A program made the translations under genes and the position numbers. Under the pieces are notes generated by a model, which did not search any database, was not told the DNA's origin, and was given only the letters and a program-made list of their open reading frames with translations. Shown here in pieces: positions 35,429-47,433 of a stretch of DNA of 47,750 nt. The DNA comes from a virus: UHGV virus genome UHGV-1789659; one strand, given 5' to 3'. Each line of letters begins with the position of its first letter. Position 1 is the first letter of the stretch.

Positions 35429-35787
35429 TGTCCATGAAAATGGGTGACCTAGCAAAGCGCAAAGAGCCTGATGCACCGGCTAAGAACACAACTCCTTTGC
35501 GCCAACCAGTCAGACCACAGGGACGCCCGACTCGTGGCAAAGAGAAAATTAAAAGCCGCACAATGTCACTGGAGGACGAATACTTCGAACTGCTGGAGAT
35601 GATGAAGTTCATCCCTCGCTTCGAGAAATTCACCCGCTCTGATGTGATTCGTGCTGCTATTTTCCATCTTGCGGAGAAGACACCGCAGGAAATCGAGGAC
35701 ATCGTGAAACTTAACGAGGCGATCACAGCTGCCGACGTTACGATGCGTACCGATGAAATTAAACGAGAGTTGATGAAGAAAGGTTGA
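35428..35787 (+). CDS. ParG-like RHH centromere-binding protein
   Basis: 119 aa; basic flexible N-terminus and C-terminal beta-alpha-alpha pattern (RTMSLEDEYFELLE...SDVIRAAIFHLAEK); TAATG coupling to parA. Confidence 0.6.
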   Translation: MSMKMGDLAKRKEPDAPAKNTTPLRQPVRPQGRPTRGKEKIKSRTMSLEDEYFELLEMMKFIPRFEKFTRSDVIRAAIFHLAEKTPQEIEDIVKLNEAITAADVTMRTDEIKRELMKKG

Positions 35788-35788
35788 C

Positions 35789-35818
35789 AAGAGAAGGCGT
35801 GATTAGACGCCTTCTCTT
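35789..35818 (+). terminator. 12-bp-stem hairpin after the partition operon
   Basis: AAGAGAAGGCGT-GATTAG-ACGCCTTCTCTT read directly. Confidence 0.5.
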
Positions 35819-35831
35819 AAAAGGTATATTT

Positions 35832-36572
35832 ATGCTTTACAAATATGTTGGAAGTAGCGTCCCGGAAGACACAATAAATTATTTAAAGTATTACTTAGAA
35901 GATGGGAAAATTCGAGATTTCAACGATCCTGCCGAGTTTAAAGTTAATTTTGATTATGATGCTGATATAGACGCCATTAAGAAAAGATTTTTTGAGCTTT
36001 GGCCTAATCATCACAATGATGAATTTGAACGCTGGTTATTGAGTCAAACAGAACATAGTCGCAGTTTTGATAACTATATGATTAGAACGACTTTTCTGCA
36101 GCGTCGGGGAGTTATTTGTTTGACAAAAAGACCAGATAATTATCTTATGTGGTCGCATTATGCGCATTCTCACTCTGGTTTTTGCATCGGATTTGATGAT
36201 GGTTTTATAAATGCGTTTGATGATGTTTTTTTTGTTCGCGGTGAGGTCAAATATTCCTCTGATGTTCCGGTTGTAAATTTTTTTACCGACTCAGCTAAAG
36301 AGATTGCAGCGGCTCTTTGCCTAAATAAAAGCGATGTCTGGGAATATGAAGAGGAGGTTAGAATCGTAACCGAGAATTGTGGCGTGAAATTATTTGATAA
36401 ATCCTTAATTAAGGAAATAACAATAGGTTGTAAGGCTAGCAGTCAACTTCAAAATTATGTTCATCAACTATTTGATTCAGGTATCGAAATCTACAAAATG
36501 AAGTGCCCTACAGGATCGTATAAGCTGGAAAAAATAAGATTAGAGAAAGATACTGATTTTCTTGGATACTAG
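35832..36572 (+). CDS. AT-rich orphan gene; hypothetical protein (possibly DUF2971-like, unverified)
   Basis: 246 aa from ATG 35832; visibly AT-rich versus neighbours; conserved-looking core LMWSHYAHSHSGFCIGFD...WEYEEEVRIV; bounded by hairpin and palindrome. Confidence 0.5.
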   Translation: MLYKYVGSSVPEDTINYLKYYLEDGKIRDFNDPAEFKVNFDYDADIDAIKKRFFELWPNHHNDEFERWLLSQTEHSRSFDNYMIRTTFLQRRGVICLTKRPDNYLMWSHYAHSHSGFCIGFDDGFINAFDDVFFVRGEVKYSSDVPVVNFFTDSAKEIAAALCLNKSDVWEYEEEVRIVTENCGVKLFDKSLIKEITIGCKASSQLQNYVHQLFDSGIEIYKMKCPTGSYKLEKIRLEKDTDFLGY

Positions 36573-38891: not shown

Positions 38892-38916
38892 AAGCGTGGA
38901 GAACACCTCCACGCTT
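38892..38916 (+). terminator. hairpin after the helicase gene
   Basis: AAGCGTGGAG-loop-CTCCACGCTT; no strong T-run. Confidence 0.35.
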
Positions 38917-38968
38917 GATTCATTGCGTGAAACAACTTTTCTTTTGCCAAACCACAAAAGAAAAACAC

Positions 38969-40150
38969 ATGAGCCTTTATGTTATATCAACATTTAGGTT
39001 GGTCACAATATTGCCTGTTAAAAGTGGAATTATCGTGAGCGAGCTGAAAGAGCTAATTGCCGAATTAGATTTTGAACAATGGTTGGATACTGAAGGTATC
39101 GTTTATCGACGTGGAGGCGTGAGTGCTCGCGGTCGTGAAGTGAATATCAAGGAGTGTCCGGTATGCGGCAGCTCCAACTGGAAGGTATATTTCAATCTGA
39201 CCAGCGGCGTCGGTAAATGCTTCGCTGGTGATCATCCCGAAGAGATTCAGTTCAATAAGCTGGTCTTCCTCAAGCACCACAGCGGTAAATCACGACGACA
39301 GTTCGAGGAATATGTGCAGAACGCTCTTCTTTCCCAGGGGTGGGCACCAAAGAAAGAAGAGATAGTGCTTGCAAGCACAGTCGAGTTAGAGGGACCACTT
39401 GCACTCCCTCGTCATTACGAACTTCCTATAGATGGCCGTCTTCCAGACTATCTGGTTGAACGAAACATATCGCCTGAAATGGCAAAGTATTTTGACCTAC
39501 GATACTGCGTCGAAGGCAAGCACGCTTATGTTGATCCGTATACAGATCAGGTTAAAGGACAGATATTCGATATGCGAATACTGATACCGGTTTACGATCT
39601 GGATGGGGTAATGAAGACATTTCAGGGACGAGACATTACCGGTACAGCAGAACGCCGCTACCTCTTTCCTATGCAGCTTCCAGCTTCAGGTAAGTTTCTC
39701 TACAACGGCCATAATGCGGTCGGCAAACAGACTGTAGTTGTCTGTGAGGGGGCGTTCGATGTTATGGGGGTTAAACGAGCTATTTTTGATGAAGAAACAT
39801 TACGTGATTACGTGGAACCGATAGGAACGTTCGGGATGCATCTATCTGGTAACACCACTCAGGATGCAGAAGATCAGTTAGGCGCGTTCCTGACGCTCAA
39901 GGCGCGTGGATTACGTAATGTGATCATGATGTGGGATAGTGAAAAGCAAGCTATACGCAACACGATGGCCGCAGCCAGGCGACTGACCAGTATTGGTCTT
40001 AATGTCAAAGTTGCGTGTTTGGGCGAGGAAGGACTCGACCCCGGCGATGCGACACCGGGGCAGATTATCAAAGCCTACTATTGCGCAAAACCTTACTCAC
40101 GACAGCTTGAACTTTTAAGCAAGGTAAAAGGTATAGCAGCATTAGTTTGA
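38969..40150 (+). CDS. DNA primase (zinc-ribbon plus TOPRIM)
   Basis: CPVCGSSNW...CFAGDH zinc-ribbon-like N-terminus; TOPRIM VVVCEGAFDVMG. Start uncertain: ATG 38969, or GTG 39036; ORF track opens at 38915. Confidence 0.7.
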   Translation: MSLYVISTFRLVTILPVKSGIIVSELKELIAELDFEQWLDTEGIVYRRGGVSARGREVNIKECPVCGSSNWKVYFNLTSGVGKCFAGDHPEEIQFNKLVFLKHHSGKSRRQFEEYVQNALLSQGWAPKKEEIVLASTVELEGPLALPRHYELPIDGRLPDYLVERNISPEMAKYFDLRYCVEGKHAYVDPYTDQVKGQIFDMRILIPVYDLDGVMKTFQGRDITGTAERRYLFPMQLPASGKFLYNGHNAVGKQTVVVCEGAFDVMGVKRAIFDEETLRDYVEPIGTFGMHLSGNTTQDAEDQLGAFLTLKARGLRNVIMMWDSEKQAIRNTMAAARRLTSIGLNVKVACLGEEGLDPGDATPGQIIKAYYCAKPYSRQLELLSKVKGIAALV

Positions 40151-41395
40151 ACCAGTATTAGTCACGTAAACATTGACCGAAAATGATTTAACTTCTGTGT
40201 TGAAGTTGTCAGTCATTACCGCGAGGTAGGCATTCTTGGTATCTCTGAATTGCTTCAGGATGATTTGAACGTTATCGGTGCAAACAAACGAGGTAGCCAG
40301 ATTGCCTCCTTTCTCTGAAAAATCCTTCAAGAAGGTGCAGTCAACTTTGCCATCATTAGCGGTAAAGACGGCATCATCACCCTGCCAGGTAAATGTTGCG
40401 TTAACGCCTTTATCAATGGATTTAGCAATAAGTCGCTGAGTGTCAGATTTGGCATTTTGCTGTTTTGAAGGCGAACGGAACGTACCTTTTGCTTTCATTG
40501 CAGCAACGTTTTCGCAGCCCGTTTCGTCATCTTTATCGCAAGCAGCTTGGTAAAGCTCTGATGCTTTCCGATAATCCTGTTTGACGCCCAATCCCTTAAG
40601 ATACATGTAACCAAGGTGGTTCATGGCATAATCATTTCCTAAGCTGATTGCTTGTTCTAAAAGACTTCTGGCCTTCGAATAGTCTTTTTTTATACCTTCT
40701 CCATGCATCAACTTGTATCCAAGCGCGCTCATGGCGTTATTATTTCCTAATTCAGCTGCTTTCAAGTACCACTTAATTGCCTCTTTATTGTTGCGCTTAA
40801 CAGCAACACCATCGTCGTACATAGAGCCTAGCCCATACATTCCTGCGGCATTTCCACTATCCGCAGCCTTTTTATAAGATTTAAATGCTTTCTTGTAATC
40901 TTTCGGAACTCCCTTACCGTATTGATATAAATATCCCATATAGGCAAGCGAAGGTATATCACCAGCTTCTACTGCTAGTTTGTGATATTTTAAAGCAGCT
41001 TCTGGGTCCTCCTTTCCAGTCCAACCTCGTTCGTATATAACGGCAAGATTATGGTAAGCACTGCCGTTGCGAGCATTTCCTGCTAGTTTGTAGTACTCAA
41101 CGGCCTTATTTAGATCTTTATCTACTCCCTTCCCAATTGTGTACATAACCCCAAGCGCATAATATGCTACTTTATCTCCCTTTTCTGCGGCGAGATCGAT
41201 CCACTTCTTGGCCTCTACTAAATCCTCATCAAAGCCATTAGCCCCATCCAAATAATTTGTCCCTAACGCACTTTGTGCTGTGGTATCTCCTGCGGTGGCG
41301 GCGTCGATCAGCGTTTGTTTATTATCTGCGTTAACGTATCCAGGGCCGAAAAGCAAAGCTAATGCCAGCAACGATGAAGGTTTTATGAGTTTCAT
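40142..41395 (-). CDS. secreted Sel1-like repeat (SLR/TPR-like) protein
   Basis: Signal peptide MKLIKPSSLLALALLFGPGYVNA; about eight 36-aa Sel1-type repeats; C-terminal 110-aa non-repeat domain; 3-prime end overlaps the primase stop convergently. Confidence 0.75.
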   Translation of the reverse strand: MKLIKPSSLLALALLFGPGYVNADNKQTLIDAATAGDTTAQSALGTNYLDGANGFDEDLVEAKKWIDLAAEKGDKVAYYALGVMYTIGKGVDKDLNKAVEYYKLAGNARNGSAYHNLAVIYERGWTGKEDPEAALKYHKLAVEAGDIPSLAYMGYLYQYGKGVPKDYKKAFKSYKKAADSGNAAGMYGLGSMYDDGVAVKRNNKEAIKWYLKAAELGNNNAMSALGYKLMHGEGIKKDYSKARSLLEQAISLGNDYAMNHLGYMYLKGLGVKQDYRKASELYQAACDKDDETGCENVAAMKAKGTFRSPSKQQNAKSDTQRLIAKSIDKGVNATFTWQGDDAVFTANDGKVDCTFLKDFSEKGGNLATSFVCTDNVQIILKQFRDTKNAYLAVMTDNFNTEVKSFSVNVYVTNTGSN

Positions 41396-41622
41396 ATTTT
41401 ATGTTCTGTTGATATAGGATGAACAGTTTAGACGCGGCAAGCGTCAAGTGTGCGAAAAGGGTACTTAAATTTAGTTAATCTGTCAGCTTTGATAATTTAT
41501 GAACTGTAAAGTTGATGTGATATTAATCACCGATGGAAATAATGAGCTATGGAATTATTGTGACACGGCTCGTGTTTTGGTTAACTAATACCTACGATAA
41601 ATATAAATAAAGGGAAGTCAAA

Positions 41623-42036
41623 ATGAGCAAAAAGAAGTTGATTTTAACAGGTGCTTTATTGTCGTTGTTTGCATTAGTTGGGTGTAAGCCTACAGACGAG
41701 AAGGCTATTACTCTGGGCCAACAGGCAATTGCGGATGATATGAAAGATCCCACGTCGGTGATGTTTAGGAAAGATAAGTTTGTCAGGACTGATCATGATG
41801 ATGGGAGTGTGACAGGCTTTGTGTGTGGTGAATTAAACGCCAAAAATGGCTTTGGTGCATACGTGGGCTATCACTCATATGTTGTTGAACTCGAAATGAA
41901 GCCAAAGGGCATGTTTTCAAAAGGGGTGGTATACAAAATCCTATCGAAGTCGTTGGCACCTAATGATCCTCATGATTTACAGCGTTATAAGCAGGTCTAC
42001 AGAAAGATGTGCAACAGTGAGGCTGTAGCTCATTAA
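41623..42036 (+). CDS. putative lipoprotein
   Basis: Signal peptide with lipobox LVG-C (MSKKKLILTGALLSLFALVGC); RBS AAAGGGAAG. Confidence 0.6.
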   Translation: MSKKKLILTGALLSLFALVGCKPTDEKAITLGQQAIADDMKDPTSVMFRKDKFVRTDHDDGSVTGFVCGELNAKNGFGAYVGYHSYVVELEMKPKGMFSKGVVYKILSKSLAPNDPHDLQRYKQVYRKMCNSEAVAH

Positions 42037-42099
42037 AGGTGAATGCTGGGCTGAGGATATGCCCAGCATCTTAGTATAAAGAACTATTGCACCTAAAAT

Positions 42100-42118
42100 G
42101 ATAAGTAGATACATACTT
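42100..42118 (+). promoter_or_regulatory. GATAAGTAGATACATACTT conserved motif
   Basis: GATAAGTA-family motif upstream of the 42162 gene. Confidence 0.4.
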
Positions 42119-42161
42119 AAGTTTTTGTAAGAATACTTTCATCCGTTAGCTAGGAGTTGGT

Positions 42162-42944
42162 ATGAAAGAAGAAATTAAGAGATTAGCCTGCAACATCATT
42201 GATAAAACTGGTTTAGAAATCAGCGAGAGCAATCGGCTAGACATCATTGAAAAAGCCGTCAATACGGCAATGGATCATATCGCCACTCGTTTGGTCGAGA
42301 TCCCTCTACCGGGGCTACCTTATCTGAAGGTTAAGTTGTGCGTATGGGGCGAACCTGCACATGCACGACGTTCTGCATTAGTTGTTTTTGTACGCAAAGA
42401 AAACTTACGAACTCTAAAAGTGCAGGTTGGGGCGTGGTTTGATGGCAGAGTCATCTATACAGATACCATTATCTGTCCTCCAGGTGACGAACATATTGAA
42501 GCCGTTATTCGAGAATCAATTCGAGCTATGCGTAGTTTAGCTTTGCTGGAAGACAAGCAAAACTTTGAATATTACTTGCTGTCGGTAAAAGCTGAACCAA
42601 CATTGTCTCTGAAAGCCGATTTCGTCACCCCGACAAATCTGTTGGAGGTTTTGATTAATAAAGGGGCTAATGATGCTGTAAACCTAATCAGGGAGAGCGA
42701 ATATTCGACTCTTTGGGACATGTGCAAAAGCCAGTTGGATCTTGTGCATATCATTGTTGATGCGGGTAAGGCGTGTGATGGCATAATGGCGGAATTTGCT
42801 GGGAAGATGGTCAGGATTGCTAACGAATTACCGATGATAGAGCAAGAGGCCAAATCATACGCCACCAATCATGTCACAGAGCTTCTTGCCCCCTATCGCT
42901 TAGAAAGCGATCAGCGCAAGATGATTAGCTGGGGAAGTTGGTAA
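42162..42944 (+). CDS. hypothetical protein
   Basis: 260-aa ORF with AGGAG RBS; no motif recognised. Confidence 0.5.
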   Translation: MKEEIKRLACNIIDKTGLEISESNRLDIIEKAVNTAMDHIATRLVEIPLPGLPYLKVKLCVWGEPAHARRSALVVFVRKENLRTLKVQVGAWFDGRVIYTDTIICPPGDEHIEAVIRESIRAMRSLALLEDKQNFEYYLLSVKAEPTLSLKADFVTPTNLLEVLINKGANDAVNLIRESEYSTLWDMCKSQLDLVHIIVDAGKACDGIMAEFAGKMVRIANELPMIEQEAKSYATNHVTELLAPYRLESDQRKMISWGSW

Positions 42945-42976
42945 GCTCTCTGTGTGTCGTTTTTTACGCAAATAAT

Positions 42977-42995
42977 GATAGGTAAGCACAAGATT
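42977..42995 (+). promoter_or_regulatory. GATAGGTAAGCACAAGATT conserved motif
   Basis: GATAAGTA-family motif upstream of the 43012 ORF. Confidence 0.35.
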
Positions 42996-43011
42996 ATTTC
43001 TGGCGGTAATT

Positions 43012-43482
43012 GTGAAAGCTGATTTGTCAAAAATCCCTTCTATTTCAGGAAATAACGGTTATTCACTTCGTTGTGAGGAAGTAAAGATAAACGGTGAGTC
43101 GGCATATTGCAGCTACTCCGTTTGCCAGCACACCATTGTTGCCTTCAAAGAAAACCGTCTTCCTCGAACGTCTTTCCAGTCGTGCGCAACCGCTATTAAA
43201 GCAGGCAAATGCAAGGCATTAAAAATGATGGTTGAAGAGATTCGTAAAGGAGAATCTCTGTATTTCGAAGATATGACCGCACTCATTAGGGAGGTTGAAG
43301 AACGGAATAAACAAGCCAGAACTATAAAACGAAAACGTGACAGTGTAACAATTAATAGCATGGTTAAGAAGATCACCACATCACAAACAGCGATCACTGA
43401 CGTGTATGCGGCGTTGCTTGAAGAAACAACAAAAGAAACACATGAGCAAATCGATCAACATATGGAGGCAAAACAACAATGA
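43012..43482 (+). CDS. hypothetical Cys-containing protein (GTG start per ORF track)
   Basis: 156-aa ORF whose stop overlaps the ligase start (ATGA); start codon uncertain. Confidence 0.4.
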   Translation: MKADLSKIPSISGNNGYSLRCEEVKINGESAYCSYSVCQHTIVAFKENRLPRTSFQSCATAIKAGKCKALKMMVEEIRKGESLYFEDMTALIREVEERNKQARTIKRKRDSVTINSMVKKITTSQTAITDVYAALLEETTKETHEQIDQHMEAKQQ

Positions 43483-44801
43483 AAAAGTTGATCGCACTTA
43501 AGCATAAGCTGGACGAAATGAAAGCTATGGGAACCAATGCAAAAAAAGAGGCATTGGCCAACATGGATGACTTCGAGCAAAGCATGGTTTCATTGATGCT
43601 CAACCCTTTCATCCGTTTTGGGGTAAAGAAATACAAAGTGGCAGAGCCGCTTAGTGAGTCCGTCCCTAGTGACGAAAAAGCCATTGATATACTGAATAAG
43701 CTGGCCTCTCGCGAGCTAACGGGGAACGCAGCAATAGCTGCTGTTGAGTCTATCGTGGCGTCAATGTGCGCCGATGGGCAGGACGTGTTCCGTCGTTTCC
43801 TCTTAAAAGACCCGAAAGCGGGCGTTGGGATTAGCCTATGCAACAAGGTTTTTGAAAATCCCATTCCGAAATTCGAGGTGCAGCTGGCGTCGCCGTATAA
43901 AGAAAAAGGCGACAAATACCCCTTCAAGCCAAATCCTAAAGCAAAATGGCCGATGATTGGCAGCCTTAAGCTCGATGGTTTGCGAGTAATTTGCGAGGTT
44001 ATTGTTGACGAGGAAGAGGTTAACTTCCTTTCTCGTACTGGTAATCCAATCACGTCTCTCGATCACCTAAAGCCAGCCATGCTCGAATTAGGCAAACTTT
44101 CAGGCCACAAACACATCTTCTTCGATGGTGAAGGAACTGCCGGTTCATTTAACCAGTCCGTATCTGCATTGCGCAAAAAGAACGTGCAGGCAATTGGCGC
44201 TATTTATCATGTTTTCGACTTCTTCCTACCGGAATGGCGGACACAGGCTAAATCCAAAGAGTATGCAAAGACAGGTATGAAGCTGAAAGAGCGCCTGGCT
44301 ATGCTCGTGGCGTTGTTCAAAAACGATCGCAGTGAAGGCTACACACAAGACATTCACCTGCATCCGTTCTATATCATCCATAGCCACGAAGACTTCATCG
44401 AACGCTTCATGAAACGCCTGGACGATAACGAAGAAGGGGAGATGGGCAAAGATCCGAACTCTGTTTACGAGTTTAAACGTACCCGCAGCTGGTGGAAGTT
44501 AAAAGACGAAGATTCAGAAGATGGTGAAATTATCGACTTTGAGCCGGGCGACCCGGACTCTGGTTTTGCCAACACACTTGGAAAAATTGTTATTCGTCTT
44601 GAAAACGGCGTCATCGTTCGTGCGAGCGGCATTAAGCATAAATATCTGGACGAGATCTGGAACAACAAAGAGAAGTACCGTGGTCGTATTGTCGAGGTTC
44701 ATTGTCACGAGAAAACACCGGACGGCAGCTTACGCCACCCACGACTGAAATGGCCGCGTTGCTTACGCGATACAGAAGATCGAATCGGAGATAAAGAATG
44801 A
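43479..44801 (+). CDS. ATP-dependent DNA ligase
   Basis: Adenylation motif I KLDGLR (lysine in SLKLDGLRV), motif III FFDGEG, motif V WWKLK, in correct order and spacing. Confidence 0.8.
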   Translation: MKKLIALKHKLDEMKAMGTNAKKEALANMDDFEQSMVSLMLNPFIRFGVKKYKVAEPLSESVPSDEKAIDILNKLASRELTGNAAIAAVESIVASMCADGQDVFRRFLLKDPKAGVGISLCNKVFENPIPKFEVQLASPYKEKGDKYPFKPNPKAKWPMIGSLKLDGLRVICEVIVDEEEVNFLSRTGNPITSLDHLKPAMLELGKLSGHKHIFFDGEGTAGSFNQSVSALRKKNVQAIGAIYHVFDFFLPEWRTQAKSKEYAKTGMKLKERLAMLVALFKNDRSEGYTQDIHLHPFYIIHSHEDFIERFMKRLDDNEEGEMGKDPNSVYEFKRTRSWWKLKDEDSEDGEIIDFEPGDPDSGFANTLGKIVIRLENGVIVRASGIKHKYLDEIWNNKEKYRGRIVEVHCHEKTPDGSLRHPRLKWPRCLRDTEDRIGDKE

Positions 44802-45199: not shown

Positions 45200-45325
45200 A
45201 TGGTTGGCTTCCTTATCGGCTTCGGCATCTGTCGTGATTTAATTAAGCAGGAACTTAAAACCAAAACACTGTGCATCGGAAAGCGCGTGTATCGGGTAGT
45301 TCATGAAACAAAGGTGAAAAAATGA
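45200..45325 (+). CDS. small ORF (41 aa), truncated paralogue of the 44798 membrane protein
   Basis: VGFLIG...C...IK.....G.R.YR.V..T shared with the 44798..44977 product; stop overlaps the next start (ATGA). Confidence 0.3.
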   Translation: MVGFLIGFGICRDLIKQELKTKTLCIGKRVYRVVHETKVKK

Positions 45326-45612
45326 GCAAATTAACTTCTTGGGAATGGTGGTTGGCCACCTATTTCTTAGCGGCCGGAGTCGCATTCGCCTTTTACGTAG
45401 GTCAGTTAGTCGTAAAACTGTTGCTTATTAAATTTGCTAGTCATAAACGTATCGATGATGGTCTGTGGCGTCTTGGTACCCTGGTGGAAACTCGCTACGG
45501 GCAACTTAAGGAGAACGAAACCATTACTATCCAAGCGAAACGATTCACTGCCACCATCACAAGAACACCTGATCGTAGAGTGGCCTTGATCAAAAAAGTC
45601 ACAACCGAATAA
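45322..45612 (+). CDS. small membrane protein
   Basis: 96-aa ORF with N-terminal TM helix (WWLATYFLAAGVAFAFYVGQLVV). Confidence 0.45.
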   Translation: MSKLTSWEWWLATYFLAAGVAFAFYVGQLVVKLLLIKFASHKRIDDGLWRLGTLVETRYGQLKENETITIQAKRFTATITRTPDRRVALIKKVTTE

Positions 45613-46391: not shown

Positions 46392-46466
46392 GATGGTGTA
46401 GCTCAGCGGTAGAGCAGTTGGCTGTTAACCAACTGGTCGGTGGTTCGACTCCATCACTCCCCACCA
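46392..46466 (+). tRNA. tRNA-Asn(GTT)-like; acceptor stem pairs poorly, so possibly a pseudogene
   Basis: D-arm GCTC-AGCGGTA-GAGC, anticodon loop CTGTTAA, T-arm GGTGG-TTCGACT-CCATC, 3-prime ACTCCCC-A-CCA; 5-prime strand GATGGTG gives only 3 of 7 pairs. Confidence 0.5.
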
Positions 46467-46470
46467 AATT

Positions 46471-46546
46471 GCCGGTTTAGCTCAGTTGGTAGAGCAGTCG
46501 CTTTGTAAGCGAATGGCCAGCGGTTCGAGTCCGTTAACCGGCACCA
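46471..46546 (+). tRNA. tRNA-Thr(TGT)
   Basis: Acceptor GCCGGTT/AACCGGC pairs perfectly; D-arm GCTC...GAGC; anticodon loop TTTGTAA; T-arm AGCGG-TTCGAGT-CCGTT; encoded CCA. Confidence 0.8.
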
Positions 46547-47192
46547 ACATAATATTGAGAACATTGGCGTAACGGGGTCATATCCCAATCTATGAATAAA
46601 TGTTGCGTTGCCGCGTGACAACCAGTGTTCTCAACATTGTGGTGAATGCACAGGCTGATGTGCCGCAACTACAGTAGTGCGCGCTTTGCGGGGCTTGCTA
46701 CAACCCTGTGTCGGAGCTCAGCACCGACCATCACAATTTGGCTCTCTTGCAACAGCATAACGCTGGAATATGTCCAACCTGGTGCGGTCTGATCACCCGC
46801 CGTTAGCTCCACGAAACGGAGCGCACAACAGATAAGAGAACTTCCCATATGGGGCTTGTCTTAAATGCATCGAGTTCTCTTATCGCTGTGTCACAGACAA
46901 AATTCCGACAGCCCTGTTTATCATCGGACGCAACCTAAAAGGTCGAGGCAAAGCCAGGTAATAGCGGAGGGAGTGACACAGCACACAACAGGTAAGAGCA
47001 TTTTCAGAGTTCGACTCTCTGAGTTGCCATTCGTGGTGGCACGCGAGACGTGAATGCTCTTTCCGTTGTGGTGAATGTGGCTAAGCGCACGCGGGGAAAT
47101 GGTTATATTGATCATTTTATGACATCTGTGGCCCCGTTCACGGTGGATAACCAGCCAAAGGACACCGGGAGGCACCCGGCACCACAACAATT

Positions 47193-47278
47193 GGAGAGTA
47201 GGGAGCATGGTGCTCAAGCGGTCTTGAAAACCGCCCCATTGCGCAAGCGATGATGGTTCGATTCCATTACTCTCCGCC
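47193..47278 (+). tRNA. tRNA-Ser(TGA)-like with long variable arm
   Basis: Acceptor GGAGAGT/ACTCTCC, anticodon stem-loop GCGGT-CTTGAAA-ACCGC, T-loop TTCGATT, encoded CCA; D-arm spacing atypical. Confidence 0.6.
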
Positions 47279-47433
47279 AGACACAGCGTTGAGCGGTTTG
47301 GCCTTTTAATCACCCAGATTAAGACTCCGCTAACATAAACCAGACCGCTCAACGCTGTGATAGACAATTACGGCAGACGTTCTTAACCATAGCTTGCTAA
47401 CATCCTAGCAACACTTTTTTCAGCGCAAAATTC

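What the first reader, a model, noticed from the sequence alone, without database searches (positions are those of the whole stretch)
40142..42944. Accessory block: secreted Sel1-repeat protein, lipoprotein and an unknown 260-aa protein between primase and ligase
A signal-peptide-bearing Sel1-like repeat protein is encoded convergently to the primase, overlapping its 3-prime end, and is somewhat AT-rich. It is followed by a predicted lipoprotein and a 260-aa unknown protein. Secreted Sel1-repeat proteins in bacteria are typically periplasmic adaptors or host-interaction factors; in a phage-plasmid this looks like a lysogenic-conversion or envelope-modifying moron, possibly a superinfection-exclusion function.
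Basis: partly seen in the sequence, partly recalled or inferred. Interest (0 to 1): 0.5.

Follow-up and report, generated by a model that had tools for sequence, protein, structure and literature searches.

The report
Two envelope cargo genes plus a core gene
In this SSU5-type phage-plasmid of E. coli, an exported Sel1-repeat protein and a small lipoprotein are optional cargo sitting in a recurrent insertion slot after the primase gene, while the 260-aa "unknown" is a fast-evolving gene that every relative carries; this is an ordinary kind of phage cargo whose function is still untested.

Summary
The three ORFs, the 9-bp overlap with the primase gene, the export signals and the low G+C are all real. 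The "block" is not one unit.

**Cargo.** Nucleotides 40151-42095 are about 1.95 kb of optional cargo in a slot directly after the primase gene. SSU5-like phage-plasmids fill this slot differently: Sel1 plus lipoprotein, Sel1 alone, lipoprotein alone, unrelated reverse-strand genes, nothing, or a deletion scar. The two genes therefore occur independently.

**Sel1 protein.** It has a Sec signal peptide, 7 Pfam Sel1 repeats, a Cys-x7-Cys linker and a conserved all-beta C-terminal domain of about 100 aa. E. coli alleles of 417, 381 and 345 aa differ by whole 36-aa repeats. Their repeat arrays are only 52-58% identical, inside backbones that are 98-100% identical.

**Lipoprotein.** It carries a lipobox (LVGC) and has a cystatin/NTF2-like fold. 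Its family has no Pfam model and recurs as cargo in other temperate phages.

**260-aa gene.** It is present in every relative examined, but evolves far faster than its neighbours.

**Function.** The function is inferred only: the cargo proteins probably act in the periplasm as binders or inhibitors that benefit the lysogen. This is a new member of a known kind, of modest interest.

The parts
40151..42095 (.). Optional cargo segment (about 1.95 kb) in the slot between the primase gene and the 260-aa gene
   Evidence: Homology to Cyrano and PhiR41_1 stops at the primase stop codon and resumes about 65 bp upstream of the 260-aa ATG. In those phages only 75 bp separate the two genes. G+C is 41.7% against 46.7% for the window.
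40142..41395 (-). Exported Sel1-like-repeat (SLR) protein, 417 aa (allele A)
   Evidence: Pfam Sel1 5.4e-56 with 7 repeats; phrog_8741 1.8e-199; best PDB match is EsiB/c5321 (4bwr) at 1.2e-55. In complete E. coli genomes it is found only on plasmids, in 62 of 5426.
41327..41395 (-). Codons for the Sec-type signal peptide (aa 1-23, predicted cleavage VNA|D)
   Evidence: Read directly from the sequence: n-region with 2 Lys, hydrophobic core PSSLLALALLFGPG (mean Kyte-Doolittle 1.41), V-x-A at -3/-1. The pattern is kept in all alleles.
40547..41290 (-). SLR array (aa 36-283), the hypervariable and repeat-number-variable part
   Evidence: Against pYLPM7a, whose backbone is 98-100% identical, nt 40440-41350 fall to 52-91% identity in ungapped 100-nt windows, with a 108-bp gap. 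Over aa 101-223, pS is 0.83 (saturated) and pN is 0.26.
40619..40726 (-). One 36-aa repeat (aa 224-259) present in allele A but absent from the 381-aa and 345-aa alleles
   Evidence: Protein alignments.
40145..40450 (-). Conserved C-terminal all-beta domain (aa 316-417) with Cys353 and Cys372, preceded by the Cys286-x7-Cys294 linker
41396..41622 (.). AT-rich divergent intergenic region (33.5% G+C), the presumed promoter region for both cargo genes
   Evidence: for composition. There is one promoter-like site on the - strand at 41621-41594 (TTGACT-16-TATCGT), but the scan as a whole does not exceed chance. No Rfam match.
41623..42036 (+). Small lipoprotein, 137 aa, cystatin/NTF2-like fold
42043..42069 (+). 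Stable 9-bp G+C-rich hairpin 7 nt after the lipoprotein stop codon, with no U-tract
   Evidence: In the fold of the 71-nt stretch 42030-42100 that contains it, MFE is -22.9 kcal/mol and z is -3.4 against shuffles. It lies inside the cargo segment.
42162..42944 (+). 260-aa protein: a gene of the replication module that is always present in relatives but fast-evolving
   Evidence: phrog_4248 1.4e-130. Present in all SSU5-type relatives examined and in 233 of 5426 complete E. coli genomes. 36-44% identical across genera, against 84-94% for helicase, primase and ligase. dN/dS is 0.31-0.47 against 0.02-0.13 for those neighbours.
39035..40150 (+). Primase gene (flank). Its last 9 nt overlap the 3' end of the Sel1 gene
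   Evidence: phrog_47 2.2e-62; annotated as DNA primase in relatives.

Best explanation
**Shown.**
- The region is a composite. A conserved slot directly downstream of the primase gene of SSU5-type phage-plasmids holds interchangeable cargo.
- Here the slot carries two divergently oriented genes that occur independently of each other and whose products are sent to the cell envelope.
  - The first is a Sec-exported Sel1-like-repeat (SLR) protein. It is built as signal peptide, 7 SLR repeats, a Cys-x7-Cys linker and a conserved beta domain of about 100 aa.
  - The second is a lipoprotein with a cystatin/NTF2-like fold.
- The adjacent 260-aa gene is not cargo. It is always present in the replication module, but it diverges unusually fast.

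**Inferred.**
- Both cargo proteins act in the periplasm of the carrier cell as stoichiometric binders or inhibitors.
- The SLR solenoid is the exchangeable specificity module. Old, diverged SLR cassettes, differing by whole repeats, have been swapped by recombination into near-identical backbones.
- The invariant C-terminal beta domain supplies a constant function such as anchoring or inhibition.
- The most likely benefit is protection of the lysogen against proteins that act in the periplasm: lysins of superinfecting phages, type VI or bacteriocin-type toxins, or muramidases. This would be a superinfection-exclusion or immunity-type moron.

**My confidence.** About 0.85 for the anatomy and evolutionary history, about 0.6 for "periplasmic binder that benefits the carrier", and about 0.3 for the protective or immunity mechanism specifically.
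For: **Cargo status**
- Cyrano and PhiR41_1 have primase, 75 bp, then the 260-aa gene.
- The slot holds Sel1 only in Enterobacter p4-20710 and in E. coli pG749_2. It holds the lipoprotein only in Cronobacter pFS2.
- It holds unrelated reverse-strand genes in SSU5 (SSU5_041) and in Klebsiella pJN2-26.
- CP088502 carries an internal-deletion scar.
- Among 5426 complete E. coli genomes, the 260-aa gene is in 233, Sel1 in 62 and the lipoprotein in 59. All copies are on plasmids.
- The segment has low G+C.

**Export**
- Signal peptide and lipobox.
- Four conserved Cys in the Sel1 protein, plus Cys68 and Cys130 in at least 90% of the aligned lipoprotein family, fit disulfides in an oxidising compartment.
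- 90 of 149 lipoprotein-family representatives match a lipobox pattern. Many of the others I inspected begin with a signal-peptide-like hydrophobic N-terminus; some are truncated.
- A few family members are fused to peptidoglycan-binding SPOR or SH3 domains.

**Modular SLR**
- Alleles of 417, 381 and 345 aa differ by 36-aa units. The arrays are 52-58% identical while the C-terminal domain is 97-98% identical.
- The divergence is sharply local within a 98-100% identical backbone.
- Synonymous sites are saturated, which points to imported old alleles.
- The genes are intact and dN is below dS, so they are functional.

**Moron behaviour of the lipoprotein family**
- A homologue sits between ogr and int of the P2-like phage SEN5.
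- Another sits in a prophage cargo patch next to the tail genes.

**Precedents for periplasmic SLR proteins as direct inhibitors**
- PA3978 inhibits the lytic transglycosylase MltF, and an outer-membrane lipoprotein counteracts it (PMC10746161).
- Sel1E neutralises the type VI effector VgrG4 (PMC7108748).

**Fold hints**
- The cystatin/latexin-type fold of the lipoprotein and the small beta-barrel of the C-terminal domain are both folds used by proteinaceous inhibitors. For the beta-barrel, matches include the PliC and YdhA lysozyme inhibitors and the BtaiB type VI immunity protein.
Against: - There is no evidence of expression. The promoter scan found 3 sites against 7.0 expected by chance, and there is no canonical terminator.
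- No cognate toxin or effector gene lies nearby. The neighbours are replication genes.
- There are no meaningful PADLOC hits for any of the three proteins.
- The sequence motifs that define cystatins (QxVxG) and MliC/PliC are absent.
- The best sequence match of the SLR array is EsiB, a host-interaction protein, not an immunity protein. The PA5087-type immunity proteins match only at about 1e-6.
- Lipoprotein relatives also sit as solitary genes among chromosomal housekeeping genes, so the family is not specifically phage-defensive.
Confidence: 0.5

Rival explanations
1. Host-interaction factor. The SLR protein reaches the cell surface or the medium and binds a host molecule, as EsiB binds secretory IgA and dampens neutrophil activation. 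The SLR allele diversity would then reflect immune or host-ligand pressure. This would be lysogenic conversion towards colonisation or virulence.
For: - The best solved relative is EsiB/c5321 (4bwr), at 1.2e-55 over aa 27-270. EsiB function is described in PMC3735183 and PMC3851747.
- Carriers come from human blood, urine and stool and from livestock.
- The allele pattern of variable repeats with a conserved remainder is compatible with antigenic or ligand variation.
Against: - The similarity is at the level of generic repeats. Human SEL1L and Legionella SLR proteins score nearly as well.
- EsiB is 467 aa in the crystallised chain and lacks the C-terminal beta domain, so the architecture differs.
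- There is no signal for crossing the outer membrane.
- Synonymous sites are saturated and dN is below dS, which argues for old swapped alleles rather than ongoing positive selection.
- Carriers also come from soil, river water and seawater.
Confidence: 0.15
2. Two-gene system. The SLR protein and the lipoprotein work together on a host peptidoglycan hydrolase, like the PA3978 inhibitor and PA5502 lipoprotein anti-inhibitor of MltF in Pseudomonas aeruginosa. This would tune envelope remodelling for the phage-plasmid.
For: - The two genes are adjacent, share one intergenic region and are divergently oriented.
- They co-occur in most E. coli carriers: 62 genomes have Sel1 and 59 have the lipoprotein.
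- There is a precedent for a periplasmic SLR inhibitor paired with an outer-membrane lipoprotein partner (PMC10746161).
- Some lipoprotein-family members carry SPOR or SH3 peptidoglycan-binding domains.
Against: - Each gene occurs without the other in the same slot. Sel1 is alone in Enterobacter/Citrobacter elements and in E. coli pG749_2. The lipoprotein is alone in Cronobacter.
- The lipoprotein family is carried by other phages and chromosomes with no SLR gene next to it.
- The lipoprotein stays 90-100% identical while the SLR array is swapped, so there is no co-variation.
- The chromosomal SLR copy in E. whittamii has no lipoprotein partner.
Confidence: 0.1
3. The C-terminal domain is a small outer-membrane beta-barrel that anchors the SLR array to the outer membrane. 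The protein would then be an envelope-modifying or receptor-masking factor acting at the membrane, rather than a soluble inhibitor.
For: - The last strand alternates hydrophobic and polar residues (read from the sequence).
Against: - About 95 residues for 8 strands, most of 6-8 residues, is short for a membrane-spanning barrel (my judgement from known barrels).
- The protein ends in ...TNTGSN, without the terminal aromatic residue typical of barrel proteins inserted by the Bam complex (established knowledge).
- It has a conserved Cys pair.
- The model is low-confidence. Soluble barrels score as high or higher: DUF4251 at 9.6, DUF1842 at 9.0 and PliC at 8.2.
Confidence: 0.08
4. One reading: the three genes are one accessory lysogenic-conversion block.
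For: The genes are contiguous. G+C is somewhat low throughout (42-44%).
Against: - The 260-aa gene is present in every relative, with or without the cargo.
- It has no export signal.
- The homology breakpoints place it outside the insertion.
Confidence: 0.03

Closest known systems
[quoted passage not shown]
   Same: - Presence/absence polymorphism at a fixed position in an otherwise collinear backbone.
- Deviant base composition.
- Genes unrelated to the surrounding module.
- Products targeted to the envelope, as with many known morons.
   Different: - The slot lies inside the replication module and abuts the primase stop codon, overlapping it by 9 bp.
- An autonomous promoter and terminator are not demonstrated.
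- Two independent cargo genes share the slot.
[quoted passage not shown]
   Same: A Sec-exported SLR protein next to an outer-membrane-type lipoprotein. It is a precedent for SLR proteins acting as direct inhibitors of periplasmic enzymes.
   Different: - PA3978 has 3 repeats and no beta domain.
- There is no detectable orthology.
- Here the two genes occur independently, which argues against an obligate pair.
SLR immunity proteins of type VI secretion: Sel1E against VgrG4 in K. pneumoniae (PMC7108748); PA5086-5088 against PldB (PDB 5jkp, 5jjo)
   Same: An SLR array followed by a C-terminal extension of unknown fold (Sel1E). The function is binding-based neutralisation of an incoming toxin. 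Paralogues have different specificities.
   Different: - No effector gene is adjacent.
- Sequence similarity to PA5087 is weak (1e-6).
- Relatives of the C-terminal domain turned up only in a few Enterobacterales: two Escherichia species, Enterobacter, Citrobacter and Pantoea.
EsiB (c5321) of extraintestinal pathogenic E. coli (PDB 4bwr; PMC3735183, PMC3851747)
   Same: The best-scoring solved relative of the repeat array (1.2e-55). It is an E. coli accessory protein.
   Different: - EsiB is longer and made entirely of SLR repeats, with no beta domain.
- EsiB is encoded in the genome of strain CFT073 (locus c5321), whereas this gene has no chromosomal copy in 5426 complete E. coli genomes.
- IgA binding was not tested.
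Receptor-blocking or exclusion lipoproteins of phages (T5 Llp, Cor of phi80/N15) and the periplasmic lysozyme inhibitors PliC/MliC and T4 Spackle (from my own knowledge)
   Same: Small envelope proteins encoded by phages or mobile elements that protect the carrier by binding a receptor or an incoming muramidase. The PliC-type barrel resembles the weak C-terminal model.
   Different: - No sequence or family match to any of them.
- The MliC/PliC motifs are absent.
- The lipoprotein fold is cystatin/NTF2-like, not a barrel.

Membership tests
Sel1-like repeat (SLR) proteins, Pfam PF08238 | Tandem repeats of about 36 aa that match the Sel1 model above the gathering score | tested here: met
   185.5 bits against a cut-off of 30.7, with 7 repeats. 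32 solved SLR proteins match at E up to 1e-3.
EsiB (c5321) orthologue | Same all-SLR architecture and close full-length sequence relationship | tested here: not met
   The match is confined to the repeats, in two overlapping local alignments, and the extra C-terminal beta domain has no counterpart. There is no DNA-level match on any E. coli chromosome.
EsiB (c5321) orthologue | Binds secretory IgA | not testable with these tools
   Needs a binding assay.
Type VI SLR immunity proteins (Sel1E, PA5086-5088) | Encoded next to the cognate effector (vgrG or tle) | tested here: not met
   The neighbours are the primase gene, the lipoprotein gene and the 260-aa gene. In E. whittamii the neighbours are IS3 remnants and yciA/yciB.
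Type VI SLR immunity proteins (Sel1E, PA5086-5088) | Neutralises a periplasm-acting effector | not testable with these tools
   Needs co-expression or competition assays.
NCBIfam equivalogs MerG, AlgK, MotX, ExoR | Score above the curated cut-off | tested here: not met
   59.8 against 350, 50.9 against 700, 50.2 against 330 and 35.1 against 450 bits.
PA3978/PA5502-type inhibitor/anti-inhibitor pair | The SLR protein and the lipoprotein act as partners, so co-occurrence is expected | tested here: not met
   Each gene occurs alone in the same slot in relatives.
Bacterial lipoproteins | Lipobox [LVI][ASTVI][GAS]C after a positively charged n-region and a hydrophobic h-region | tested here: met
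   KKK, then LILTGALLSLFALVG, then C21. The lipobox is LVGC. Lys at +2 implies outer-membrane sorting by the +2 rule (established knowledge; not tested).
Cystatin superfamily (protease inhibitors) | Cystatin fold | tested here: met
Cystatin superfamily (protease inhibitors) | QxVxG inhibitory loop motif and sequence-family membership | tested here: not met
   No QxVxG motif. No Pfam hit for the protein or for 65 relatives.
PliC/MliC lysozyme inhibitors | Pfam family match and the conserved SxSGAxY and YxxxTKG motifs | tested here: not met
   No Pfam hit at E up to 1. The motifs are absent.
PliC/MliC lysozyme inhibitors | Eight-stranded beta-barrel fold | tested here: inconclusive
Moron (in the sense of Hendrix and colleagues) | Present in some but absent from other closely related phage genomes at the same position | tested here: met
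Moron (in the sense of Hendrix and colleagues) | Base composition differs from the flanks | tested here: met
   41.7% against 46.7% G+C, the 2.4th percentile.
Moron (in the sense of Hendrix and colleagues) | Own promoter and terminator, with expression from the prophage or plasmid state | tested here: inconclusive
   There is one promoter-like site at 9 of 12 matches upstream of the Sel1 gene, but the scan is below chance. A stable hairpin without a U-tract follows the lipoprotein gene. There are no expression data.
Known anti-phage defence systems (PADLOC-DB 2.0) | Significant match to a defence-protein model | tested here: not met
   Only a spurious hit of the Sel1 protein to PtuA (18.7 bits, 41 residues) and nothing for the other two proteins.
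SSU5-type phage-plasmid (context) | Collinear SSU5-like structural and replication modules on a plasmid of about 110 kb | tested here: met

The most novel reading that the evidence does not exclude
The SLR protein is a modular, phage-plasmid-borne periplasmic "immunity receptor". An invariant beta-barrel domain would inhibit or anchor. An exchangeable SLR cassette (alleles of 417, 381 and 345 aa) would retarget it to different incoming periplasmic threats, such as phage tail lysins, type VI effectors or bacteriocins. The neighbouring fast-evolving 260-aa replication-module gene would belong to the same diversification hotspot. This would be a previously undescribed envelope-level defence with cassette-swapped specificity.
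Probability: 0.1. Interest if true: 0.65.

Novelty: new member of a known kind. Interest (0 to 1): 0.3.

Why it matters
SSU5-type phage-plasmids are in about 4% of complete E. coli genomes (233 of 5426), and about a quarter of those carry this cargo. The result gives three concrete handles for experiments.

1. It defines an insertion slot after the primase gene that different genera fill with different genes. This is a place to look for carrier-benefit or defence genes.
2. It provides a natural allele series of an exported SLR protein, with a conserved beta domain and swapped repeat arrays, in near-isogenic backbones. That is ideal for testing what periplasmic SLR proteins on mobile elements bind.
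3. It identifies a gene that is always present yet diverges rapidly, inside an otherwise highly conserved replisome module.

None of this overturns current ideas. The proteins are already in RefSeq and PHROGs as proteins of unknown function.

Tried and rejected
**Sequence and family searches that gave nothing**
- Sequence or profile searches of the lipoprotein family, the C-terminal domain family and the 260-aa family against the PDB found nothing significant.
- Pfam at E up to 1 gave nothing for the C-terminal domain or the 260-aa protein. NCBIfam gave only sub-threshold SLR equivalogs. PADLOC gave nothing meaningful.
- The word-indexed homologue searches were shallow: 5, 8 and 4 hits.
- Rfam found no RNA family in 39800-43200.

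**Structure searches**
- BFVD gave only uncharacterised phage proteins for the lipoprotein.
- The afdb50 library was unavailable.
The C-terminal domain therefore had only a 5-sequence alignment and gave a weak model. No prediction quota was left for the 260-aa protein.

**Ideas rejected**
- Iterons or an origin inside the 260-aa gene. The 14-nt repeat at 42193 and 42241 has only two copies, which encode NIIDK and DIIEK.
- Flanking direct or inverted repeats marking a transposon-like insertion. None lie at the boundaries.
- Recent positive selection on the SLR array. Synonymous sites are saturated and dN is below dS, so these are old alleles moved by recombination.
- A toxin or effector neighbour for relatives of the lipoprotein. 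Five contexts showed housekeeping genes, small hypothetical genes or prophage cargo regions. The only toxin-family neighbour was a YafO-type toxin-antitoxin gene two genes upstream on a 2-kb contig; no secreted toxin or effector was seen.
- The 146-aa ORF next to the E. whittamii SLR gene as a lipoprotein homologue. It is not one.

Full report
**1. Observation**

- a 417-aa ORF at 40142-41395 on the minus strand;
- a 137-aa ORF at 41623-42036 on the plus strand;
- a 260-aa ORF at 42162-42944 on the plus strand.

They lie between a primase gene (ending at 40150) and, after a further 156-aa ORF, an ATP-dependent ligase gene (43479-44801). The Sel1 gene converges on the primase gene and overlaps it by 9 bp. 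Relatives are annotated with the same overlap.

The 417-aa protein has 7 Pfam Sel1 repeats (5.4e-56). Its N-terminus reads as a Sec signal peptide: MKLIK, a hydrophobic core, then VNA|D. The 137-aa protein has a canonical lipobox, LVGC.

The cargo segment has 41.7% G+C against 46.7% for the window, which is the 2.4th percentile of equal-sized sliding windows.

**2. Context**

The window is an SSU5-type phage-plasmid of E. coli.
- Its first 25 kb are 97.6% identical to phage Cyrano and 80.8% to Salmonella phage SSU5. This stretch holds the terminase, head, tail and host-specificity genes.
- The region of the finding is 99.7-99.8% identical to plasmids of about 110 kb such as MF554642 and pGMI17-003_2.
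- All three proteins fall into PHROG families of unknown function: phrog_8741 (1.8e-199), phrog_2320 (1.9e-39) and phrog_4248 (1.4e-130).
- In pGMI17-003_2, whose DNA is 99.7% identical across the region and 100% identical across the lipoprotein gene, RefSeq annotates the three genes as "tetratricopeptide repeat protein" and "hypothetical protein".

**3. The block is not one unit**

In phages Cyrano and PhiR41_1 the primase gene is followed, after 75 bp, directly by the 260-aa gene. Alignments place the left breakpoint at the primase stop codon and the right breakpoint about 65 bp upstream of the 260-aa start codon. So 40151-42095 is an optional segment of about 1.95 kb.

The same slot is filled differently in other SSU5-type elements:

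| Element | Content of the slot |
|---|---|
| This window and about 55 complete E. coli genomes | Sel1 (reverse strand) plus lipoprotein |
| Enterobacter hormaechei p4-20710 | Sel1 only, with the same 9-bp overlap |
| E. coli pG749_2 | Sel1 only |
| Cronobacter pFS2 | Lipoprotein only |
| SSU5 | Unrelated 321-aa reverse-strand gene |
| Klebsiella pJN2-26 | Unrelated 388-aa reverse-strand gene |
| Cyrano, PhiR41_1 | Empty |
| CP088502 | Deletion scar keeping 130 bp of the Sel1 3' end and about 140 bp of the lipoprotein 3' end |

Among 5426 complete E. coli genomes, the 260-aa gene is in 233, Sel1 sequence in 62 and the lipoprotein gene in 59. All copies are on plasmids and none on a chromosome.

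Three conclusions follow:
- Sel1 and the lipoprotein are cargo.
- They are independent of each other.
- The 260-aa gene belongs to the backbone.

**4. The Sel1 protein**

*Architecture.* Signal peptide (aa 1-23), SLR array (aa 36-283), a linker with Cys286 and Cys294, and a conserved domain (aa 316-417) with Cys353 and Cys372.

*Alleles.* E. coli phage-plasmids carry at least three length alleles, of 417, 381 and 345 aa, which differ by whole 36-aa repeats. The SLR arrays are only 52-58% identical, while the C-terminal domain is 97-98% identical.

*Local divergence.* Against pYLPM7a, whose backbone is 98-100% identical to the window from the helicase gene to the ligase gene, identity collapses only within nt 40440-41350. 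Synonymous sites there are saturated (pS 0.83) and pN is 0.26. These are therefore old, diverged cassettes exchanged by recombination, not recent positive selection.

*Distribution of the C-terminal domain.* It has no Pfam or PDB sequence relative. Relatives turned up only in a few Enterobacterales:
- SSU5-type plasmids of Enterobacter and Citrobacter;
- a Pantoea protein;
- a full-length chromosomal copy in Escherichia whittamii, next to IS3 remnants between yciB and yciA;
- an IS-truncated remnant in Enterobacter kobei.

*Similarity of the SLR array.* The best match is EsiB/c5321 (1.2e-55). Human SEL1L and Legionella SLR proteins score almost as well, so the similarity is generic to the repeats. 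NCBIfam equivalogs (MerG, AlgK, MotX, ExoR) all score far below their cut-offs.

**5. The lipoprotein**

An exhaustive HMMER search found 1311 relatives at E up to 1e-3. Among the 149 representatives I inspected the median length is 129 aa, and they share the motif LKDPxSAxFR...GxVCGEVNAKNSFGAYxG.
- No member matches a Pfam family for this domain. A few are fused to SPOR or SH3 domains.
- 90 of 149 representatives match a lipobox pattern. Many of the others I inspected begin with a signal-peptide-like hydrophobic N-terminus, and some are truncated.
- Cys68 and Cys130 are conserved in at least 90% of the 65 aligned family members.

Relatives sit in typical cargo positions of other temperate phages:
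- between ogr and int in the P2-like Salmonella phages SEN4 and SEN5, at 48% identity;
- in a cargo patch beside the tail genes of a prophage.

Others are solitary chromosomal genes. No secreted toxin or effector neighbour was seen. The only toxin-family neighbour was a YafO-type toxin-antitoxin gene two genes upstream on a 2-kb contig.

Within E. coli phage-plasmids the gene stays 90-100% identical while the neighbouring SLR array is swapped. A stable hairpin without a U-tract follows the stop codon; the 71-nt stretch containing it folds with z -3.4.

**6. The 260-aa protein**

It is present in all SSU5-type relatives examined, including SSU5 (44% identity) and Klebsiella elements (33-36%). 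It is strikingly more diverged than its neighbours.

| Comparison | 260-aa protein | Helicase | Primase | Ligase |
|---|---|---|---|---|
| Identity across genera | 36-44% | 93-94% | 90-91% | 84-91% |
| Identity within E. coli (Cyrano, pGD31-F25) | 80-84% | 99.8% | 97-99% | 99.1-99.5% |
| dN/dS | 0.31-0.47 | 0.02-0.03 | 0.06-0.13 | 0.03-0.05 |

The N-terminal 150 aa are the most variable part, and their dN/dS is 0.39-0.54.

The protein has no export signal and no hit in Pfam, NCBIfam, PADLOC or the PDB. It is a backbone gene of unknown function under relaxed or diversifying constraint.

**7. How it most likely works**

*Shown:* cargo status, independence of the two cargo genes, export signals, modular allele structure and intact reading frames under purifying selection.

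*Inferred:* both cargo proteins act in the periplasm as binding proteins. Periplasmic SLR proteins have been shown to act as direct inhibitors:
- PA3978 binds and inhibits the lytic transglycosylase MltF, and an outer-membrane lipoprotein counteracts it (PMC10746161).
- Sel1E neutralises the type VI effector VgrG4 (PMC7108748).

The combination seen here is a constant beta domain with an exchangeable repeat array in near-identical backbones. It fits a binder whose target varies. That favours exogenous targets, such as lysins of superinfecting phages, type VI or bacteriocin toxins, or host factors, over a conserved housekeeping enzyme. I therefore rank a protective, immunity-like or exclusion role first, at about 0.3.

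The rivals rank as follows:
- an EsiB-like host-interaction role, about 0.15;
- a PA3978/PA5502-like two-gene system, about 0.1, weakened by the independent occurrence of the two genes;
- an outer-membrane-anchor reading of the C-terminal barrel, about 0.08.

Weaknesses of the leading explanation:
- There are no expression data.
- The promoter scan is below chance.
- No defence-database hit was found.
- No partner toxin gene is nearby.
- The fold evidence is generic.

**8. Novelty and verdict**

Two of the three genes are envelope-targeted morons in a phage-plasmid. The third is not accessory, the genes do not form one block, and the function is untested.

Variable cargo is known to be abundant in the SSU5 supergroup (PMC7969092). 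These proteins are already catalogued as proteins of unknown function. I therefore class this as a new member of a known kind, with interest 0.3.

The parts most worth following up are the cassette-swapped SLR alleles on a constant beta domain, the recurrent slot after the primase gene, and the fast-evolving 260-aa backbone gene.

Noticed in passing
window 35784-36572 (+): A 262-aa DUF2971 protein matches the PADLOC candidate defence family PDC-S31 (7.7e-39). It sits in a second variable slot between the partition genes and the 249-aa gene. In that slot, relatives carry PD-T4-3 (PhiR41_1, 1.6e-23), a P-loop NTPase (pGMI17-003_2), a reverse-strand DUF2971 gene (Enterobacter) or an unrelated 351-aa gene (Cronobacter). 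This looks like a defence-gene hotspot.
   Followed up: partly
L010 3282-4247 (-) (SSU5_041); L011 3046-4212 (-) (pJN226_0090): SSU5 and Klebsiella pJN2-26 carry unrelated reverse-strand genes of 321 and 388 aa in the same post-primase slot. Neither has a significant Pfam or PADLOC match.
   Followed up: partly
L006 4001-4276 (CP088502); also NZ_AP027577 and NZ_JBRNIK010000002: These larger plasmids (158-240 kb) keep a deletion scar of the cargo. It consists of 130 bp of the Sel1 3' end joined to about 140 bp of the lipoprotein 3' end. At least some empty or near-empty states therefore arose by loss.
   Followed up: yes
L012 3620-7008 (Escherichia whittamii chromosome): A full-length 436-aa homologue of the Sel1 protein, with a C-terminal domain 88% identical, lies in a small island between yciB and yciA/tonB. 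It is next to fragmented IS3-family transposase ORFs. An IS-truncated 156-aa remnant lies in a prophage-like region of Enterobacter kobei. The gene therefore also moves outside phage-plasmids.
   Followed up: partly
window 43012-43482 (+): A 156-aa ORF (phrog_5055, unknown function) overlaps the ligase start codon by 4 nt. It shows intermediate divergence, 67-75% identity across genera.
   Followed up: no
window 45322-45612 (+): Homologues of this 96-aa ORF are annotated "C-type natriuretic protein" in RefSeq plasmids and in SSU5. This is almost certainly a propagated misannotation.
   Followed up: no
window 46393-47279 (+): A tRNA cluster of Asn(GTT), Thr(TGT) and Ser(TGA), matching the tRNA set annotated in Cyrano. 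SSU5 and pJN2-26 show only tRNA-Asn in the stretches I fetched.
   Followed up: no
L003 7379-12581 (PhiR41_1): In phage PhiR41_1 the ligase position holds only a 34-aa ORF. It is followed by a "mobile element protein" and other genes. The ligase gene may be disrupted or replaced in a phage-plasmid recorded with E. coli MG1655 as host.
   Followed up: no
window 38915-39035: The primase start is ambiguous. The longest ORF starts at a TTG at 38915 (411 aa). Relatives are annotated with 371 aa (equivalent to a start at 39035) or 393-394 aa.
   Followed up: no
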